Shown here piece after piece: positions 2,077 through 41,396 of a stretch of DNA of 64,000 bases. Below the pieces are notes generated by a model that was given only the letters and a program-made list of their open reading frames with translations, was not told where the DNA came from and made no database searches. Within the stretch, counting starts at the first letter, position 1, and the number at the start of each line of letters is the position of its first letter. The stretch is from Kofleriaceae bacterium (lineage in GTDB: Bacteria; Myxococcota_A; Polyangia; Haliangiales; Haliangiaceae), in contig CAXNMK010000002.1 in NCBI GenBank assembly GCA_964203225.1, positions 481,664 to 545,663 on the forward strand, given 5' to 3'. A program made the position numbers and the translations under genes.

Positions 2077-2266
2077 GGTTTCGAGAGCGTTTCACGTTCT
2101 CTCGATCCAGCGGGGCTCCACCCCGCCCCCCGCGGCACGCCGCGCGGGGCCCCACCCCGGTTTCGAGAGCGTTTCACGTTCTCTCGATCCAGCGGGGCTC
2201 CACCCCGCCCCCCGCGGCACGCCGCGCGGGGCCCCACCCCGGTTTCGAGAGCGTTTCACGTTCTCT
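2077..2266. repeat. REP-like intergenic element, 82-bp unit in 2.3 tandem copies directly after the FadL-1 stop codon
   Basis: Unit ggtttcgagagcgtttcacgttctctcgatccagcggggctccaccccgccccccgcggcacgccgcgcggggccccacccc repeated at 2077, 2159 and 2241 (partial). Contains the ccccgcg/cgcgggg inverted repeat. Same family as elements at 6094, 10502, 34147 and 41311. Confidence 0.85.
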
Positions 2267-2297
2267 GGGGTCCCGGGCTGAGCTAGGTTCTCGCGCC

Positions 2298-3977
2298 ATG
2301 AGGGTAGGCGCGCTCGTCGTGATCGCTGGTGCGGTCGTTGGTCTGGTTCCGCGCGGCGCGGCGGCCGGTGGGCTGCTGTTGCCAGGGTCGGGCGCGAGTT
2401 CGACGTCGCGCGCGGGGGCGGCGGTCGCCTCGACGGAGGACGGCGAGGCGCTGTCGGTGAACCCGGCCGGGCTGGCGAAGACCACCGGCTGGACGATCAC
2501 GATCTCGGCGTCGTTCATCCGCTACTTCATGGAGTTCACGCGGCGAGGCACCTACGACGACCCACAGGACTTCGATCCCGCGTACGCCGGTCAGCCCTAC
2601 GCGACGGTGACCAACGATCCGGCACCGCCGCTCGGCATCGCGAAGTTCCAGCCGATCCCGGTGATCGCGGTGGTGTCCGACCTCGGCGGGAAGGTGCCCA
2701 ACCTGCGCCTCGCCGCGGGCCTGTACGCGCCGAGCGGCTACCCGTTCCGCGACATGTCCGCCGGCTACCAGTTCCCCCGCGCCGGTGACCCGAACGCCGA
2801 CCTCACCACGCCGCCGCCGGCGAGCCGCTACGACATCCTGACCCAGGAGAGCCGGCTGCTCCTGCCGTCGGTCGCGGCCAGCTACCGGATCCTGCCCGAG
2901 CTCGACGTCGGCGCGCGGTTCACCGCCGGCAGCGTCGAGAGCAAGTCCCAGCTCGCGGTGTGGGGCACGCCCTACAACCTCGAGGAGTCGGTCCGCAACG
3001 ACAGCCTGTTCACCGCCGACATCAAGGACGGGTTCATCCCCGCGTTCGGCCTCGGCGTGACCTACCGGCCGACCCCGGCGATCGAGATCGGCGCCGTCTA
3101 CAACTCGGCGCTCGTGATCAAGGCGAAGGGCACGGCCTCCAGCGTCAAGGGTCCGGGCGTGTCGCCCGAGCGCGTGATCGGGCCCGTGCCCGACGCCGAC
3201 AGCGTGTGCTCCACCGGCGGCACGTTCGAGGCGCAGAAGGCGTGCATCAACCTCCAGATCCCGCAGACCGCGGCGATCGGCGCCCGCTACAAGTTCATCG
3301 GCGCCAACGAGCAGCTCCGGGGTGACATCGAGCTCAACGTCGGCTGGGAGAACTGGGGCAAGACCTGCGAGAAGGACGCCGACACCGGCCAGTTCAAGGA
3401 CCCCGAGTGTACGGCGCCCGGACAGTATCGCGTGGTGCTCGACTCCGGCCTGTATGTCAACGACGTGTACGCGCAGCCGCTCGAGAAGAACTTCAACAGC
3501 TTCGGGTTCCAGGACACGTTCGCGGTCCGGATCGGCGGCAGCTATCGCCACCAGCTCGGCGAGGCGCTCGACGCCGACACGGTGATCCTCCGCGGCGGCA
3601 TCAGCTACGACTCGGCCGCCGCCAAGGAGGGCTGGCTGCGCGCGCAGGTGGATGGCGCGGCGCGCGTGACCTCGACCCTCGGAGCGGCCTACCGTGGGCG
3701 GTCGTTCGAGGTGTCCGCCGGTGGCGGCTTCGTCTACGAGGGCACCAACACCAACCCGGGCGCCGCCGCCGACGGCAGCGACTGCAACCCGACCCTCGCC
3801 GCGGGCAACCTCGGCTGCAACGGCGACAACACCGAGCGCCCGGTCGACGCCCGCCAGGGCCCCGACCCGACCAACCCGTTGCTGACCCCGCAGTTCCAGG
3901 CGGAGAGCCCCTACAACCAGGGTACGTTCAAGTCGCACTACGTGCTGCTGATGCTCGGCGTCACGACCTGGTTCTAG
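2298..3977 (+). CDS. outer-membrane transport protein, OMPP1/FadL/TodX family (paralog 2)
   Basis: In-frame ATG at 2298 inside the long ORF 915..3977. N-terminus MRVGALVVIAGAVVGL...NPAGLAK is parallel to paralog 1. Ends ...TTWF. Confidence 0.7.
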   Translation: MRVGALVVIAGAVVGLVPRGAAAGGLLLPGSGASSTSRAGAAVASTEDGEALSVNPAGLAKTTGWTITISASFIRYFMEFTRRGTYDDPQDFDPAYAGQPYATVTNDPAPPLGIAKFQPIPVIAVVSDLGGKVPNLRLAAGLYAPSGYPFRDMSAGYQFPRAGDPNADLTTPPPASRYDILTQESRLLLPSVAASYRILPELDVGARFTAGSVESKSQLAVWGTPYNLEESVRNDSLFTADIKDGFIPAFGLGVTYRPTPAIEIGAVYNSALVIKAKGTASSVKGPGVSPERVIGPVPDADSVCSTGGTFEAQKACINLQIPQTAAIGARYKFIGANEQLRGDIELNVGWENWGKTCEKDADTGQFKDPECTAPGQYRVVLDSGLYVNDVYAQPLEKNFNSFGFQDTFAVRIGGSYRHQLGEALDADTVILRGGISYDSAAAKEGWLRAQVDGAARVTSTLGAAYRGRSFEVSAGGGFVYEGTNTNPGAAADGSDCNPTLAAGNLGCNGDNTERPVDARQGPDPTNPLLTPQFQAESPYNQGTFKSHYVLLMLGVTTWF

Positions 3978-4003
3978 CGGACGTCACGACCTGGTTCTAG
4001 CGG
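3957..4003. repeat. 23-bp tandem duplication (x2) spanning the FadL-2 stop codon
   Basis: gtcacgacctggttctagcggac occurs twice in tandem. Confidence 0.7.
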
Positions 4004-4036
4004 ACGTCCCGACCACGTCTGCTAAGGTCCGGTTCC

Positions 4037-38686: not shown

Positions 38687-39072
38687 TCAGCGGGTGCGTG
38701 GCGCGGTCGCCCCGGCGGGATCGCCGGTCGGCTCCCCCCGGGTGGACCGGTCGAGGGCCCGGCGCTGGTCCTCGGTCAGCTGCTGCTCGCAGGCCTCGAA
38801 CGCCGTGCGGTCGCTGGCGTCGACCAGGCAGGCGCGGACCTGCGCGCTCCACGCGCCCTCGGTGCACACGTGGACGAGCGAGTCGCGCATCGCCGGCAGC
38901 TGGACGGTGACGGCGCGGCGGACCTCGTCGGTGGGCTTGGCCCGCTCGAGGTCGTCGGTCACGAGCGCGAAGAACTTCGCGCCGGCCGCGCCGCACGGGG
39001 GGCCATCGGCGTCGCCGCGCTTGCACGCGGAGGCGCCGACGAGCAGGCCGAGCATCACGATGACACGGGCGA
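38687..39072 (-). CDS. hypothetical Cys-rich lipoprotein
   Basis: Lipobox-like MLGLLVGASAC. Start approximate. Confidence 0.4.
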
Positions 39073-39131
39073 TCACGAAGGGGTTTTCCGCTCCATGGTG
39101 TCCGCTGTCAAGGTCGGTATAGTCGGGGCCG

Positions 39132-41310
39132 ATGACGAAGGCGCGATCGCTGCCATTGATCGCACTCGCGGTGGGGGTCGTGGTGCTCGCGCTCAACCTC
39201 CGCCTCGTCGCGGGCGGGCAGACCTGGGCCGACGTCCGCTACCACGCCGAGGTCGCGCCTCCGCGGCTCGCCGCCGGGGAGGCGCTGCGCGCGGGCACGC
39301 TGCCGGCGTGGTGGGACGGCACCGGATTCGGCGTGCCGCTGCTCGCGTACCCTGGACACGCGGCGCTCTACCCGGTGACCTGGCTCGCCCCCGGGCCTCG
39401 CGGCCTCGATCTCGTGCTGCTGCTGCACCTCGCGTGGACCGCGCTCGGCGTGTGTGTGTGGGCGCGCGGGCGCGGCGTTGGCGGCGGGCGTGGCGCGGGT
39501 GCGCCGGTGTCCGATCCGAGCGCGCTGGTCGCCGGGCTGCTCGTCGTCACCTCGGGCCTGCTCGCGAGCGCGGCGGTGCGCGGCGCGCTGCCGGGGCTCG
39601 CCCACCTGCCATGGCTCGGCGCCGCCGCCCAGGCGCTGCCCCTCGCCGCCTCCGCGCGCACGCGCCGCCGGCTCGCCGCCGCGATCGCCGGGCTGCTCGG
39701 GCTCGTCGCGCTCGCCGGCGAGCTCGCGCTGCTGGTCGATGCGGTGGTGCTGGTCCTCGTCCTCGGCACGCGGCGGTCCACGCTCGGGCTGATCGGCGCC
39801 GCGGTGCTCGCCGGCCTCGCCCTCGGCGCGGTCCAGTGGCTGCCCGCGATCCTCGAGCTGCCGCGCGGCGCCGGCGCCACGCTCGCGCCGCTGCCGCTGT
39901 CGCGCCTGGTCGAGCTGCTCGTGCCCGGCAGCTTCGGCGCGGGGGAGCCGGACCGCGGCGTCGCCGCGCTCGCGGGCACCCAGGCGTGGGCGCCGAGCCT
40001 GTACGTCGGGGCGCCGCTGATCGCGCTCGCCCTGGTGCGGCCGCCCCCCGTCCGCGCGGCCGTCGTGCTGCTCGCGTACGCGGCGCTCGCGCTCGGCATC
40101 GGCCGGGGCGGCGGGTGGCCGGCGTACCTCGGCGCGCCCGAGCTCCACGTGGCGGCGCTCGTGCTCGTGCTCGCCGCCCACGCGGGCCCGGGGCTCGATG
40201 CGCTGCTCCGGGGCGAGCGGCGCGCACTGCTCGCCGTCGCGGGCGGTGCTCGCCACCGGCGTGGCGCTGCTCGCGCTCGCCGCGCTGCGCGGCCGCCACC
40301 CCGAGGCCGCGGCGCCGATCGCGCGCGCGCTGGTCGACGGCGGGGTCGGGCTCGGGTGCGTGGTCGGCGCACTCGCGCTGGTGTGGCGCGGCCCGGTCGG
40401 GGCGCTGCCCCTCGCCCTCGCCCTGCTCGTGCTGCCGGGCGCCGGGGCCACGCCCTCGACCGCGCCGCGCGCAGCCCGCGCGCTCGTCGACGAGCCGCCG
40501 CTGTGGGCGACCGCCGCCGAGGATGCCCCGCGGCCCGCGCGCCTGTTCCGCCCGGCGTTCCTGCACGGCATCACCGACGGCCTCGAGGACACGCTCGGCA
40601 CGCTGGGCGGGACTTCGGCGTGGCGGTGGGGTATCGCCGCCGCGCGCAGTGAGCACCCTGGGCGCGCGCGCGAGTTCGACGCGGTGTGGCTCGCGGCCTC
40701 GCGCGAGGGCGGCGCGCTGCTCGCGCGGTTCGGGATCGAGCTCGCGATCCTGCCGGCGACGCTCGTCGAGCCGCGCAAGCTGACCGAGCTCGCGCGCCGC
40801 GGCGAGTGGGCGCTGGTGTCGCTGCCGGTCACTGCGGTCGCGGCGGTCTATCGCGGCGCGCGGTTCGCGGTCGATCCGGCCGACGCCCTCGCGCTGCTGT
40901 TCGCGCCCGCGGGCGGCACCAACATCCTCGGCGGCACCACCGTGCTACGCGGCCGCGGCGAGCCGCTGGTCCACGCGGGCAAGCCGCTGCCGTGTGCGCT
41001 CGTGCGGTGGGAGGCGGGCGATCTCGAGGTCCGCTGCACCACCGACGCGCCCGGCCACGCCGTGGTGACCTCGTCCGCGGTACCGGGGTGGGCGGCGACC
41101 GTCGACGGCGCGGCCACGCCGTGGCTGACCAGCGACGTGCTGCGCCGCGCGGTGCGGGTCACGCCGGGCACCCACACGATCGCGTGGCGCTACACGCCGC
41201 CGGGTCTGGGCGTTGGCGGGCTGGTCGCCGCGGTCGGCCTGCTCGGCGTGCTGGCGCTGCTGGTCGCCGCGCGCCGGGGCCGCGACGCCCCTCCGCCGGA
41301 CGGCAACTGA
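39132..41310 (+). pseudogene. YfhO-family integral membrane protein, apparently interrupted by a +1 frameshift near 40245
   Basis: The N-terminal YfhO-like multi-TM half runs in frame 39132. The C-terminal YfhO-like half (ORF 40198..41310) runs in another frame. The junction lies in gcgggcggtgctc. Confidence 0.55.
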
Positions 41311-41396
41311 CGCGGTTCGGGTTCCACGGGCCTCCGCCTCGCCCTGCACGGCACGCAGGGTTCCCACCCCGGGTTCGAGACCATTTCTACGGTCCC
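41311..41396. repeat. REP-like intergenic element (single copy, same orientation as the 2077 array) between convergent stops of yfhO and panE
   Basis: cacgggcctccgcctcgccctgcacggcacgcagggttcccaccccgggttcgagacc aligns to the reverse complement of the 6094 copies. Confidence 0.8.

What the first reader, a model, noticed from the sequence alone, without database searches (positions are those of the whole stretch)
2077..41396. A REP-like element family (~80 bp) always placed immediately after stop codons
Copies at 2077-2266 (2.3 tandem units), 6094-6254 (2 tandem units, opposite orientation), 10502-10585, 34147-34230 and 41311-41396 share the same core. It is cggggctcc(a/g)ccccgccc(c/t)ccgcgg...gggttcccaccccgg(t/g)(g/t)ttcgaga, with a 7-bp GC stem (ccccgcg/cgcgggg or ggggcgc/gcgcccc) and a second gagacNg/cNgtctc hairpin. 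Every copy starts 0-3 nt after a stop codon. In three cases it fills the gap between convergent genes. This suggests a transcribed 3'-UTR structure acting as a terminator or mRNA stabiliser, and a mobile or RAYT-mobilised origin.
Basis: seen in the sequence. Interest (0 to 1): 0.7.

Follow-up and report, generated by a model that had tools for sequence, protein, structure and literature searches.

The report
Hairpin repeat parked at stop codons
A soil myxobacterium (Kofleriaceae) carries a family of ~80-base, three-hairpin DNA repeats that sit directly against the TGA stop codons of ordinary genes; this is a new, lineage-specific example of the well-known REP/BIME type of small bacterial repeat, not a new kind of system.

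Summary
A covariance model finds seven full units and one partial unit at five loci, scoring 71-100 bits. The next best hit scores 21 bits, and no copy lies inside a coding region. Each 76-84 nt unit has three GC-rich hairpins (H1, H2, H3) and no terminal inverted repeats. At four loci the H1 stem starts 0 nt after a CTGA stop codon. At the fifth, an inverted array abuts the stop with a partial H1. Three loci fill convergent gene gaps; convergent gaps without the element are only -4 to 28 nt. AccC ends at the same residue in a relative that lacks the element, so the unit sits exactly after the native stop. The same copies occur in independent assemblies of the species. Relatives at about 80-90% nucleotide identity lack them at the two comparable sites.

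My best reading is a small non-autonomous repeat of the REP/BIME type that inserts at CTG^A and is tolerated, and possibly used, as a 3'-UTR hairpin cluster. It is not a canonical terminator, because there is no U-tract. A RayT-like Y1 transposase gene lies at 24817-25653, but the element does not flank it, so mobilisation by such an enzyme is unproven. REP tags that supply stop codons are already described. Verdict: new member of a known kind, modest interest.

The parts
2077..2103 (-). Partial unit (H1 hairpin plus GAAACC) that directly abuts the TGA stop (2074-2076) of the first FadL-like gene. It is the stop-proximal end of the inverted array.
   Evidence: Sequence read. TRF gives 2.3 copies. 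Covariance model partial hit of 21-23 bits.
2104..2185 (-). Full 82-nt unit (H1-H2-H3), inverted relative to both flanking + strand genes.
   Evidence: Covariance model 91.2 bits. Identical to the neighbouring unit apart from its first base.
2186..2267 (-). Full 82-nt unit. Its outer end faces the start (ATG 2298) of the second FadL-like gene. The left flank here is CCCC, not CTGA.
   Evidence: Covariance model 88 bits. Sequence read.
6094..6169 (+). 76-nt unit with a shortened H1. The stem starts at the base after the TGA stop (6093-6095) of the VWA/CoxE-like gene.
   Evidence: Covariance model 83.4 bits. Sequence read. Pfam for the flanking gene.
6170..6253 (+). 84-nt unit, second of the tandem pair. 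It ends ...GTGGAACTG and is followed by 17 nt and then the stop (6271-6273) of a convergent - strand gene.
   Evidence: Covariance model 99.8 bits. In strain contig L133, similarity to the window ends exactly here.
10502..10585 (+). Single 84-nt unit that starts at the TGA stop (10501-10503) of accC (biotin carboxylase), upstream of pyrG. It is flanked by CTGA on both sides.
   Evidence: Covariance model 75.4 bits. Same score in the independent contig L130. The AccC C-terminus is the same in L006, which lacks the unit.
34146..34229 (+). Single 84-nt unit that starts at the TGA stop (34145-34147) of an epimerase-family gene. Seven nt separate its other end from the stop of a convergent gene (34237-34239).
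   Evidence: Covariance model 86.8 bits. Same score in contigs L134 and L135.
41320..41398 (-). Single 79-nt unit, the most degenerate copy (H2 shortened, H3 weak). Its H1 starts at the TGA stop (41397-41399, - strand) of a PanE/ApbA-like gene. Nine nt separate its other end from the stop (41308-41310) of the convergent + strand gene.
   Evidence: Covariance model 71 bits. Sequence read. Pfam for the flanking gene.

Best explanation
This is a lineage-specific family of small, non-autonomous, hairpin-rich repeats of the REP/BIME kind, found in an uncultured Kofleriaceae (Myxococcota) chromosome.

A unit is about 80 nt: hairpin H1 (GAGACnG-TGAA-CnGTCTC), a G-rich linker (CCGGGGTGGGAACCC), hairpin H2, hairpin H3, and a tail GTGGAAC-CTG. 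It has no terminal inverted repeats.

Inferred steps:
- Units were inserted after speciation from the nearest available relatives.
- Insertion occurs at the sequence CTG^A. In this 72% GC genome that sequence is most often tolerated where it forms the stop codon, and 26 of 55 genes here end in CTGA.
- The element's first base rebuilds TGA, so the reading frame is untouched and the H1 stem starts at the base after the stop.
- Units then expand locally by tandem duplication and may recombine with one another.
- Because copies lie downstream of genes, most are transcribed as 3'-UTR. There the stable hairpins would plausibly hinder 3'-to-5' decay and read-through between convergent genes, and would have to be melted by the terminating ribosome.
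- The mobilising enzyme is most likely a single-strand-DNA HUH-Y1 (RayT/IS200-like) transposase. That class is abundant in this clade and one copy lies in the window.

Shown here: family membership, anatomy, exact placement, preservation of the hairpins, absence from relatives, and strain-level stability.

Not shown here: the insertion mechanism, the enzyme, and any RNA-level role.
For: - Family and copy set.
- Three hairpins are conserved. 94.8% of stem cells pair, against 41-57% when partners are slid. Four pairs change on both sides and 0/500 shuffles reach the covariation score.
- No terminal inverted repeats (direct comparison of the unit ends).
- Exact abutment to TGA at all five loci, and CTGA at all four forward-oriented left flanks.
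- Right ends read CTG|A at 6253 and 10585, and CTG|T in the L133 variant.
- AccC ends ...WRRQLR* both in the window (TGA plus element) and in L006 (TAG, no element). The VWA protein length is within one residue of its L008 orthologue.
- No copies in about 61 kb from four relatives whose aligned stretches are 69-90% identical to the window, mostly 80-90%.
- Convergent gaps are -4 to 28 nt without the element and 175/89/86 nt with it. Copies occupy 3 convergent, 2 co-directional and 0 divergent gaps.
- The same copies are present in independent assemblies: ENA ERZ27280279, ERZ27280286 and ERZ27280198, and Logan ERR3719165.
- A Y1_Tnp gene lies at 24817-25653. Its family is named RayT by JGI and is widespread in Kofleriaceae.
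- Published precedent: REPs lie <20 bp from 3' ends in convergent and unidirectional gaps, and the GTAG tag often supplies the TAG stop (PMC3733652). E. coli TnpA-REP cleaves at a CT dinucleotide beside the REP (PMC8266576).
Against: - Only five loci could be examined. Genome-wide copy number, orientation bias and intragenic frequency are unknown.
- No empty site was found in a close strain, so insertion and the CTG^A target are inferred, not seen.
- The outer end of the inverted array at 2267 has flank CCCC, not CTG.
- Two right ends (34229, 41320) do not read CTG.
- H1 starts at the first base of the unit. That leaves no room for an IS608-style guide sequence 5' of the hairpin.
- The window's Y1 gene is not flanked by the element, and its flanks are no more similar to it than background.
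- If CTGA sites were used at random among tolerated positions, four of four at stop codons has p of about 0.05. Selection for the position cannot be excluded.
- Folding energies are only 0.6-3.2 sd (one copy 0) better than shuffles, and similar on both strands.
Confidence: 0.6

Rival explanations
1. It is primarily a host-selected cis-acting RNA: a 3'-UTR module whose hairpins start at +1 after UGA in order to end or insulate transcription, stabilise the upstream mRNA, or modulate termination by the ribosome. Its spread and exact position reflect selection for that role, not the target choice of a transposase.
For: - In 4 of 5 loci the element is in the sense orientation of the gene whose stop it touches.
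- G-U pairs favour the forward strand 12 to 4.
- Stems are kept by compensatory change at 58-77% overall identity.
- A hairpin at +1 lies inside the footprint of a terminating ribosome. From my own knowledge (the paper could not be retrieved): Liang, Rudd and Deutscher 2015 reported that E. coli REPs within about 15 nt of a stop codon reduce expression of the upstream gene.
Against: - The 2077 array is inverted relative to both neighbours.
- All hairpins are near-palindromes that fold equally well on the other strand.
- No U-tract follows any hairpin.
- Relatives lack the element downstream of accC and of the VWA gene.
- No Rfam family matches.
- Many of the G-U cells come from closely related units and are not independent.
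Confidence: 0.2
2. It is a classical MITE, mobilised in trans by a DDE transposase, which makes a 3-4 bp target-site duplication (TGA or CTGA).
For: The size is 76-84 nt. Direct CTGA repeats flank the 10502 copy and every unit of the 6094 array. The distribution is dispersed and intergenic.
Against: - The two ends share no terminal inverted repeat.
- The copies at 34146 and 41320 lack a matching right-hand CTGA.
- The L133 variant ends CTG|T.
- No DDE transposase gene was found among the window proteins scanned.
Confidence: 0.1
3. It is a recoding signal: a SECIS-like or read-through hairpin after UGA that gives the upstream proteins a 27-residue extension. The frame in phase with the stop is open through the unit and, in three units (6094, 6170, 10502), ends at an in-frame TGA.
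For: The hairpin starts directly after UGA. The in-phase frame is open in all five forward copies, counting the L133 variant.
Against: - The AccC orthologue in L006 uses TAG at the same position.
- Open frames are expected at 72% GC: four of six frames of a typical unit are open.
- Stem changes are compensatory at the nucleotide level.
- The flanking enzyme families are not known selenoproteins (my own knowledge).
Confidence: 0.03

Closest known systems
REP elements and BIMEs of Proteobacteria (E. coli, Pseudomonas, Stenotrophomonas; GTAG- and CGTC-tagged families)
   Same: - Short GC-rich palindromic repeats, extragenic.
- Concentrated just downstream of genes in convergent and unidirectional gaps, with none seen here in divergent gaps.
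- Often in tandem clusters and species-specific.
- The end of the repeat can supply the stop codon of the upstream gene: GTAG gives TAG in REPs (PMC3733652), CTGA gives TGA here.
- A CT dinucleotide sits at the unit boundary, as at E. coli TnpA-REP cleavage sites (PMC8266576).
   Different: - The unit is 76-84 nt with three unrelated hairpins, not one 20-50 nt palindrome.
- There is no GTAG or CGTC tag.
- Units repeat head-to-tail, not as REP/inverted-REP pairs.
- No REPtron was found: the Y1 gene in the window is not flanked by the element.
- The host is a Myxococcota lineage. Two full-text searches pairing myxobacterial terms with REP or MITE terms returned nothing relevant.
IS200/IS605-derived miniature elements (palindrome-associated transposable elements) and their Y1 HUH transposases
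   Same: No terminal inverted repeats. Hairpins lie near both ends. The same short sequence (CTG/CTGA) sits at the left flank and at the right terminus. Clear target duplication is not universal. A Y1_Tnp gene is present nearby in the genome.
   Different: The left hairpin starts at the first base, so there is no room for an IS608-type guide sequence. No cognate transposase was identified. Strand or replication bias could not be tested.
MIRUs of Mycobacterium tuberculosis (comparison from my own knowledge)
   Same: Intergenic units of 40-100 bp in a high-GC genome, often as short tandem arrays, whose ends overlap the stop codon of the upstream gene.
   Different: MIRUs lie inside operons and also overlap the downstream start codon, carrying small coupled ORFs. 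Here there is no start-codon overlap, most copies are in convergent gaps, and the hairpin content is strong.
Rho-independent (intrinsic) terminators
   Same: GC-rich hairpins immediately downstream of genes, including between convergent genes.
   Different: No U-tract follows any hairpin. There are three hairpins in a conserved order, and the units share sequence by descent.

Membership tests
REP (sensu stricto) | A single palindrome of about 20-50 nt | tested here: not met
   The unit is 76-84 nt with three different hairpins. H1 alone (about 19-23 nt) would fit the size.
REP (sensu stricto) | A conserved unpaired tetranucleotide tag (GTAG, or CGTC) at one end of the palindrome | tested here: not met
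   The base-paired stem is preceded by CTGA in 4 of 5 loci. GTAG occurs only internally in the 10502 copy.
REP (sensu stricto) | Extragenic, mainly close to 3' ends in convergent and unidirectional gaps | tested here: met
   All 8 hits are intergenic: 3 convergent, 2 co-directional and 0 divergent gaps, at 0 nt from a stop codon.
REP (sensu stricto) | High copy number across the genome | not testable with these tools
   Only the 64-kb window and a few short contigs of this species were reachable. There are five loci in 64 kb. The genome and metagenome pattern scans returned only chance hits.
REP (sensu stricto) | Cognate RAYT/TnpA-REP gene flanked by the repeats (REPtron) | tested here: not met
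   A Y1_Tnp gene lies at 24817-25653: Pfam 30.1 bits against a cut-off of 23, but NCBIfam REP_Tyr_transpos 31.4 bits against a cut-off of 80. There are no covariance-model hits in its flanks, and the flanks are no more similar to the element than background. Other Y1 genes of the genome could not be examined.
BIME | REP and inverted REP pairs separated by a linker, often repeated in tandem | tested here: not met
   H1, H2 and H3 are not inverted copies of each other. Units are head-to-tail direct repeats. Only the tandem repetition is shared.
MITE (DDE-mobilised) | Terminal inverted repeats | tested here: not met
   The left end TGAGAGACGG... and the reverse complement of the right end TCAGTTCCACGG... 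do not match.
MITE (DDE-mobilised) | Target-site duplication of fixed length | tested here: inconclusive
   CTGA is on both sides at 10502 and around the 6094 array. It is absent or degenerate at 34229 and 41320, and the L133 variant reads CTG|T. No empty site is available.
IS200/IS605-type miniature element | No inverted terminal repeats, subterminal hairpins, and insertion 3' of a fixed short target that resembles the right-end cleavage site | tested here: inconclusive
   The anatomy fits, and 4 of 5 left flanks are CTG(A). However, n is small, the 2267 flank is CCCC, and there is no space for a guide sequence 5' of H1.
Intrinsic terminator | GC-rich hairpin followed directly by a U-tract | tested here: not met
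   The scan of 1-12000 finds 3 terminator-like sites against 2.9 expected. None is an element hairpin in the sense orientation, and the tails after H1 and H3 are CGAAC and GTGGAAC.
Any Rfam RNA family | Covariance-model match at the gathering score | tested here: not met
   There are no matches in the whole window at gathering thresholds. Only chance-level hits (E >= 0.19) lie near 6094, and none overlaps a unit.
Bacterial SECIS / recoding hairpin | UGA decoded as an amino acid, so UGA is conserved at that codon in orthologues | tested here: not met
   The AccC orthologue in L006 ends with TAG at the same position.

The most novel reading that the evidence does not exclude
The element is a 'stop-codon-seeking' mobile repeat. 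A single-strand Y1 (RayT-like) enzyme inserts it between the G and the A of CTGA. The element's own first base rebuilds the stop codon, which places a stable hairpin at position +1, where every terminating ribosome must unwind it. The host then uses this as a tunable brake on termination, mRNA decay or convergent read-through. That would make target choice, and not only selection, the reason REP-like repeats hug stop codons.
Probability: 0.2. Interest if true: 0.6.

Novelty: new member of a known kind. Interest (0 to 1): 0.35.

Why it matters
Small palindromic repeats are well studied in gamma- and alpha-proteobacteria. My two targeted full-text searches found no description of one in Myxococcota. 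This family gives a clean example in a very GC-rich genome. The repeat boundary coincides with the stop codon to the base, and this can be checked against an orthologue without the element. If a genome-wide census confirms the CTG^A rule, the family would help separate two explanations for why REP-like repeats sit so close to stop codons: target choice by the mobilising enzyme, or selection for a 3'-UTR role. In practice, these units break metagenome assemblies (one contig ends inside the 2077 array) and coincide with a synteny breakpoint between strains, so they matter for binning and for strain comparison in Kofleriaceae. Otherwise it is an ordinary kind of feature.

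Tried and rejected
- Genome search. An exact-pattern scan of 185,579 species genomes with TCTCGAN{2,4}CCGGGGTGGGRMCCC gave 5 single hits in unrelated taxa, all chance on inspection.
- Metagenome search. The covariance model scored none above 22.4 bits.
- Protein-database search. A synthetic 976-residue query made of the open-frame translations of six unit variants, meant to catch spurious ORFs that cover other copies, found nothing.
- Plasmid collection. blastn with the 6090-6260 array gave no match.
- Possible link to the Y1 gene. 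GTAGGATGGGTTCC and GTAGGGTGGGCTCC on either side of the gene looked like the element core. They are not conserved in the 88% paralogue, and flank-to-element alignment scores are below the background mean. Rejected as chance.
- Isolated H1 hairpins elsewhere. None was found after any other stop codon. The two matches in fetched loci lie inside coding sequence.
- Exact-protein look-ups. Those for sigma-54, the 370-aa membrane protein, PanE and FadL-1 returned nothing, so sites 1 and 5 could not be compared between strains.
- SECIS or read-through reading. Rejected.
- Solved structures. The Y1 protein has no sequence-level match in the PDB.
- Literature. Liang et al. 2015 could not be retrieved.

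Full report
**What the window is.** The 64-kb window is 72.5% G+C. It carries housekeeping genes: the mnmG 3' end, two FadL-like outer-membrane genes, accC, pyrG, and the rpoN-hpf-ptsN-hprK-rapZ-ptsH-ptsI cluster. The closest PyrG sequences that carry a taxonomic label are from Kofleriaceae and Myxococcales metagenome-assembled genomes at 85-90% identity. One ENA contig has an identical protein. Contigs from ENA samples ERZ27280279, ERZ27280286 and ERZ27280198 and from Logan run ERR3719165 match the window at 98.8-99.9% nucleotide identity. The sequence is therefore a real, repeatedly assembled organism and not an artefact.

**Checking the observation.** All five loci are present as described. 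Tandem Repeats Finder reports 2077-2266 as 2.3 copies of 82 nt at 100% identity, and 6102-6255 as 1.8 copies of 84 nt at 97%.

I oriented the copies and aligned six units. I then derived a consensus structure and built a covariance model from it. Searched with and without filters, the model finds seven full units:

| Coordinates | Strand | Bits |
|---|---|---|
| 2104-2185 | - | 91.2 |
| 2186-2267 | - | 88 |
| 6094-6169 | + | 83.4 |
| 6170-6253 | + | 99.8 |
| 10502-10585 | + | 75.4 |
| 34146-34229 | + | 86.8 |
| 41320-41398 | - | 71 |

A partial unit lies at 2077-2103. Nothing else scores above 21-23 bits, and no hit lies in a coding region. A 21-position core pattern matches five times against 0.00 expected. 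Independent loci are 58-77% identical, so this is a moderately diverged family and not a recent burst.

**Anatomy.** Read in the orientation of 6170-6253, a unit has these parts:

- (CT)GA
- H1: GAGACGG-TGAAC-CCGTCTC
- linker: GAACACCGGGGTGGGAACC
- H2: CCCT-GTGCGGC-TTG-CCGCGG-AGGG
- H3: (A)GGGGC-GGA-GCCCC
- tail: GTGGAACTG

On ten distinct copies, 94.8% of stem cells form standard pairs, against 41-57% when the 3' partners are slid by 1-3 columns. Four pairs (two in H1, one each in H2 and H3) change on both sides while staying paired. None of 500 column shuffles reaches the observed covariation score.

The two ends of the unit are not inverted repeats of each other. Minimum free energies are only 0.6-3.2 sd better than dinucleotide shuffles (no better for one copy), and are similar for both strands. 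In such GC-rich DNA, it is the kept pairing and not the energy that shows the hairpins matter. G-U pairs favour the forward strand 12 to 4. This is a weak hint, because many of those cells come from related units. No Rfam family matches.

**Placement.** I called genes from third-position GC and frame periodicity, then corrected some calls by hand.

- At 6094, 10502, 34146 and 41398(-), the gene that reads into the element ends CTGA and the H1 stem begins at the very next base. The last two bases of the stop codon fall inside the repeated unit; the internal junction of the 6094 array also reads CTGA|GAGAC.
- At 2077 the array is inverted relative to both neighbouring + strand genes. It still starts at the base after the TGA, with a partial unit consisting of H1.
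- Three loci fill convergent gaps of 175, 89 and 86 nt. The six well-annotated convergent gaps without the element measure -4 to 28 nt. Removing the element would bring the occupied gaps down to about 5-17 nt.
- Two loci are co-directional and none is divergent.
- No other stop codon in the window is followed by an H1-like hairpin.

Random placement in the roughly 9.8 kb of intergenic DNA would almost never put an end exactly against a stop five times out of five. This is an inference.

**Is the stop native?** AccC ends ...SEISGWRRQLR* in the window (TGA followed by the element). It ends identically in the relative L006, which has TAG and no element. In L008 and L009 it is one residue shorter. 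The VWA-domain protein is within one residue of its L008 orthologue. FadL-1 ends in the same ...TWF as its tandem paralogue FadL-2. The element therefore sits exactly after the native stop position and leaves the protein unchanged.

**Comparison with relatives and strains.** Four syntenic loci from relatives were examined (L006-L009, about 61 kb; aligned stretches 69-90% identical to the window, mostly 80-90%). They contain no copy. This includes the regions downstream of accC and of the VWA gene. Their intergenic DNA is too diverged to serve as a base-precise empty site.

Within the species, every copy that could be checked is present and nearly unchanged. Two things vary:

- Contig L132 begins inside the 2077 array, a typical assembly break at a repeat.
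- Contig L133 (98.8% identical) follows the window up to the end of the 6094 array. It then continues into a different unit variant (H1 = GAGACTGC-GAA-GCGGTCTC) and a different downstream gene, a PP2C-like phosphatase on the + strand.

The L133 breakpoint coincides with the right end of the element. This suggests recombination between copies and helps to define the right end as ...GTGGAMCTG.

**Target and mechanism (inference).** Left flanks are CTG|A... in four of five loci. Right ends read ...CTG|A at 6253 and 10585, ...CTG|T in L133, CCG|A at 41320, and are degenerate at 34229. The simplest reading is insertion after CTG, most often into CTG^A. The element's first A rebuilds TGA, and the displaced A follows the right end.

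In this window 37 of 55 genes end in TGA and 26 in CTGA. Fully intergenic CTGA occurs 37 times on both strands, including those within the elements. If CTGA were used at random wherever insertion is tolerated, four of four at stop codons has a probability of about 0.05. A target rule plus purifying selection could therefore explain the placement, and added selection for the position cannot be excluded.

Several features are reminiscent of REP/RAYT and IS200/IS605 chemistry:

- the lack of terminal inverted repeats;
- hairpins near both ends;
- the same short sequence at the left flank and the right terminus;
- a CT dinucleotide at the boundary.

E. coli TnpA-REP cleaves at CT next to the REP (PMC8266576). 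Against a strict IS608-like model, H1 starts at the first base and leaves no room for a guide sequence, and the flank at 2267 is CCCC.

**A candidate enzyme class, but no link.** Pfam finds a Y1_Tnp domain in the ORF 24817-25653 (30.1 bits, cut-off 23). The protein has an HIH motif and the tyrosine motif AYVLNN. NCBIfam's RAYT model scores only 31.4 bits against a cut-off of 80. Homologues are numerous in Kofleriaceae and are named 'REP element-mobilizing transposase RayT' by JGI.

An 88% paralogue lies in a different gene context in the same samples. It shares about 90 nt of upstream and about 25 nt of downstream flank with the window copy. That pattern looks like a mobile IS200-like unit. 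Neither copy is flanked by the element. An apparent GTAGGRTGGG motif on both sides of the window copy is not conserved in the paralogue, and flank-to-element similarity is below background. A REPtron is therefore not demonstrated.

**Function.** No U-tract follows any hairpin, and the terminator scan is at chance level. The units are not canonical intrinsic terminators.

Because copies lie at 3' ends, they should be transcribed. By analogy with REPs, they could impede exonucleolytic decay or convergent read-through. A hairpin at +1 lies inside the footprint of a terminating ribosome, which in E. coli has been reported to lower expression of the upstream gene. That report (Liang, Rudd and Deutscher 2015) is cited from my own knowledge, because the paper could not be retrieved.

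The compensatory changes cannot tell RNA function apart from recognition of DNA hairpins by a transposase. A SECIS or read-through role is rejected, because the AccC orthologue uses TAG.

**Comparison with the known.** Di Nocera et al. 2013 (PMC3733652) show three relevant things:

- REPs lie mainly in convergent and unidirectional gaps.
- Convergent-gap REPs are mostly <20 bp from both 3' ends.

The behaviour seen here is therefore already described for REPs. What differs is the unit: about 80 nt with three unrelated hairpins, no GTAG or CGTC tag, and head-to-tail repetition rather than inverted pairs. The host phylum also differs. Two full-text searches pairing myxobacterial terms with REP or MITE terms found nothing relevant, and a search on Kofleriaceae genome repeats listed no paper on such a family.

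I file it as a new member of a known kind. It works like a REP/BIME-type repeat but fails the strict membership tests for REP, BIME and MITE, and is undecided for an IS200/IS605-type miniature element.

**Limits.**

- No genome-wide census or empty site was possible.
- Copy number, orientation bias, the mobilising enzyme and any RNA role remain open.

Noticed in passing
window 24817-25653 (+); paralogue in L136 2923-3759, L137 and L138: This is an HUH-Y1 (Pfam Y1_Tnp) gene of a family that JGI names RayT and that is very common in Kofleriaceae. An 88% paralogue in the same metagenomes sits in a different gene context and shares about 90 nt of 5' flank and about 25 nt of 3' flank. That looks like an IS200-like mobile unit. 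It is not flanked by the hairpin repeat.
   Followed up: partly
window 15127-15195 and 3959-4014: Two other short tandem duplications span stop codons. An 11-nt unit CTGACCGCGAG is repeated 4.8 times starting at the TGA of the hpf-like gene. A 23-nt unit covering the last six codons plus the TAG of the second FadL-like gene is repeated 2.4 times. Tandem duplication at gene 3' ends seems common here and may explain the element arrays.
   Followed up: partly
window 6254, compared with L133 1890-2230: In a 98.8%-identical strain contig, synteny with the window ends exactly at the right end of the element array. A different unit variant and a PP2C-like gene follow. This is either recombination between element copies or a strain rearrangement.
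   Followed up: partly
window 63303, compared with L131 7849-11628: A 99.3%-identical contig diverges from the window at 63303. There the Ser/Thr kinase gene is 671 aa, against a 355-aa ORF (62243-63310) in the window, where it is followed by a different - strand gene. This is a structural variant or a truncated gene. No hairpin repeat lies at the breakpoint.
   Followed up: no
window 23293-23899 and 25890-27285: There are very long short-period repeats: GGTGGC about 53 times plus an 18-mer 16.5 times, and an 18-mer GGCGACGGGCGCGGGTGC about 78 times at 75% identity. They bracket the four-helix-bundle gene (24333-24647) and the Y1 gene. The coding status and strand are unclear.
   Followed up: no
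window 451-2076 and 2298-3977: Two FadL/TodX-family outer-membrane genes are tandem paralogues (70-75% identity over the repeat-finder stretches, about 65% over the full length by blastn). They are separated only by the inverted element array.
   Followed up: no
forward strand of every unit, e.g. window 6198-6240: G-runs flank hairpin H2 in all copies (G4-5, 1-2 nt, G3-4, H2, G3-4, 1-3 nt, G4-5). This pattern could form a G-quadruplex with a hairpin loop as an alternative to H2 and H3. It was not evaluated.
   Followed up: no
window 7459-7662: An imperfect 18-nt repeat (GCGGCGCTGCCGCTGCCG, about 8 copies) lies inside the - strand PilZ/PEGA-domain gene (6816-9122). It is probably a low-complexity linker.
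   Followed up: no
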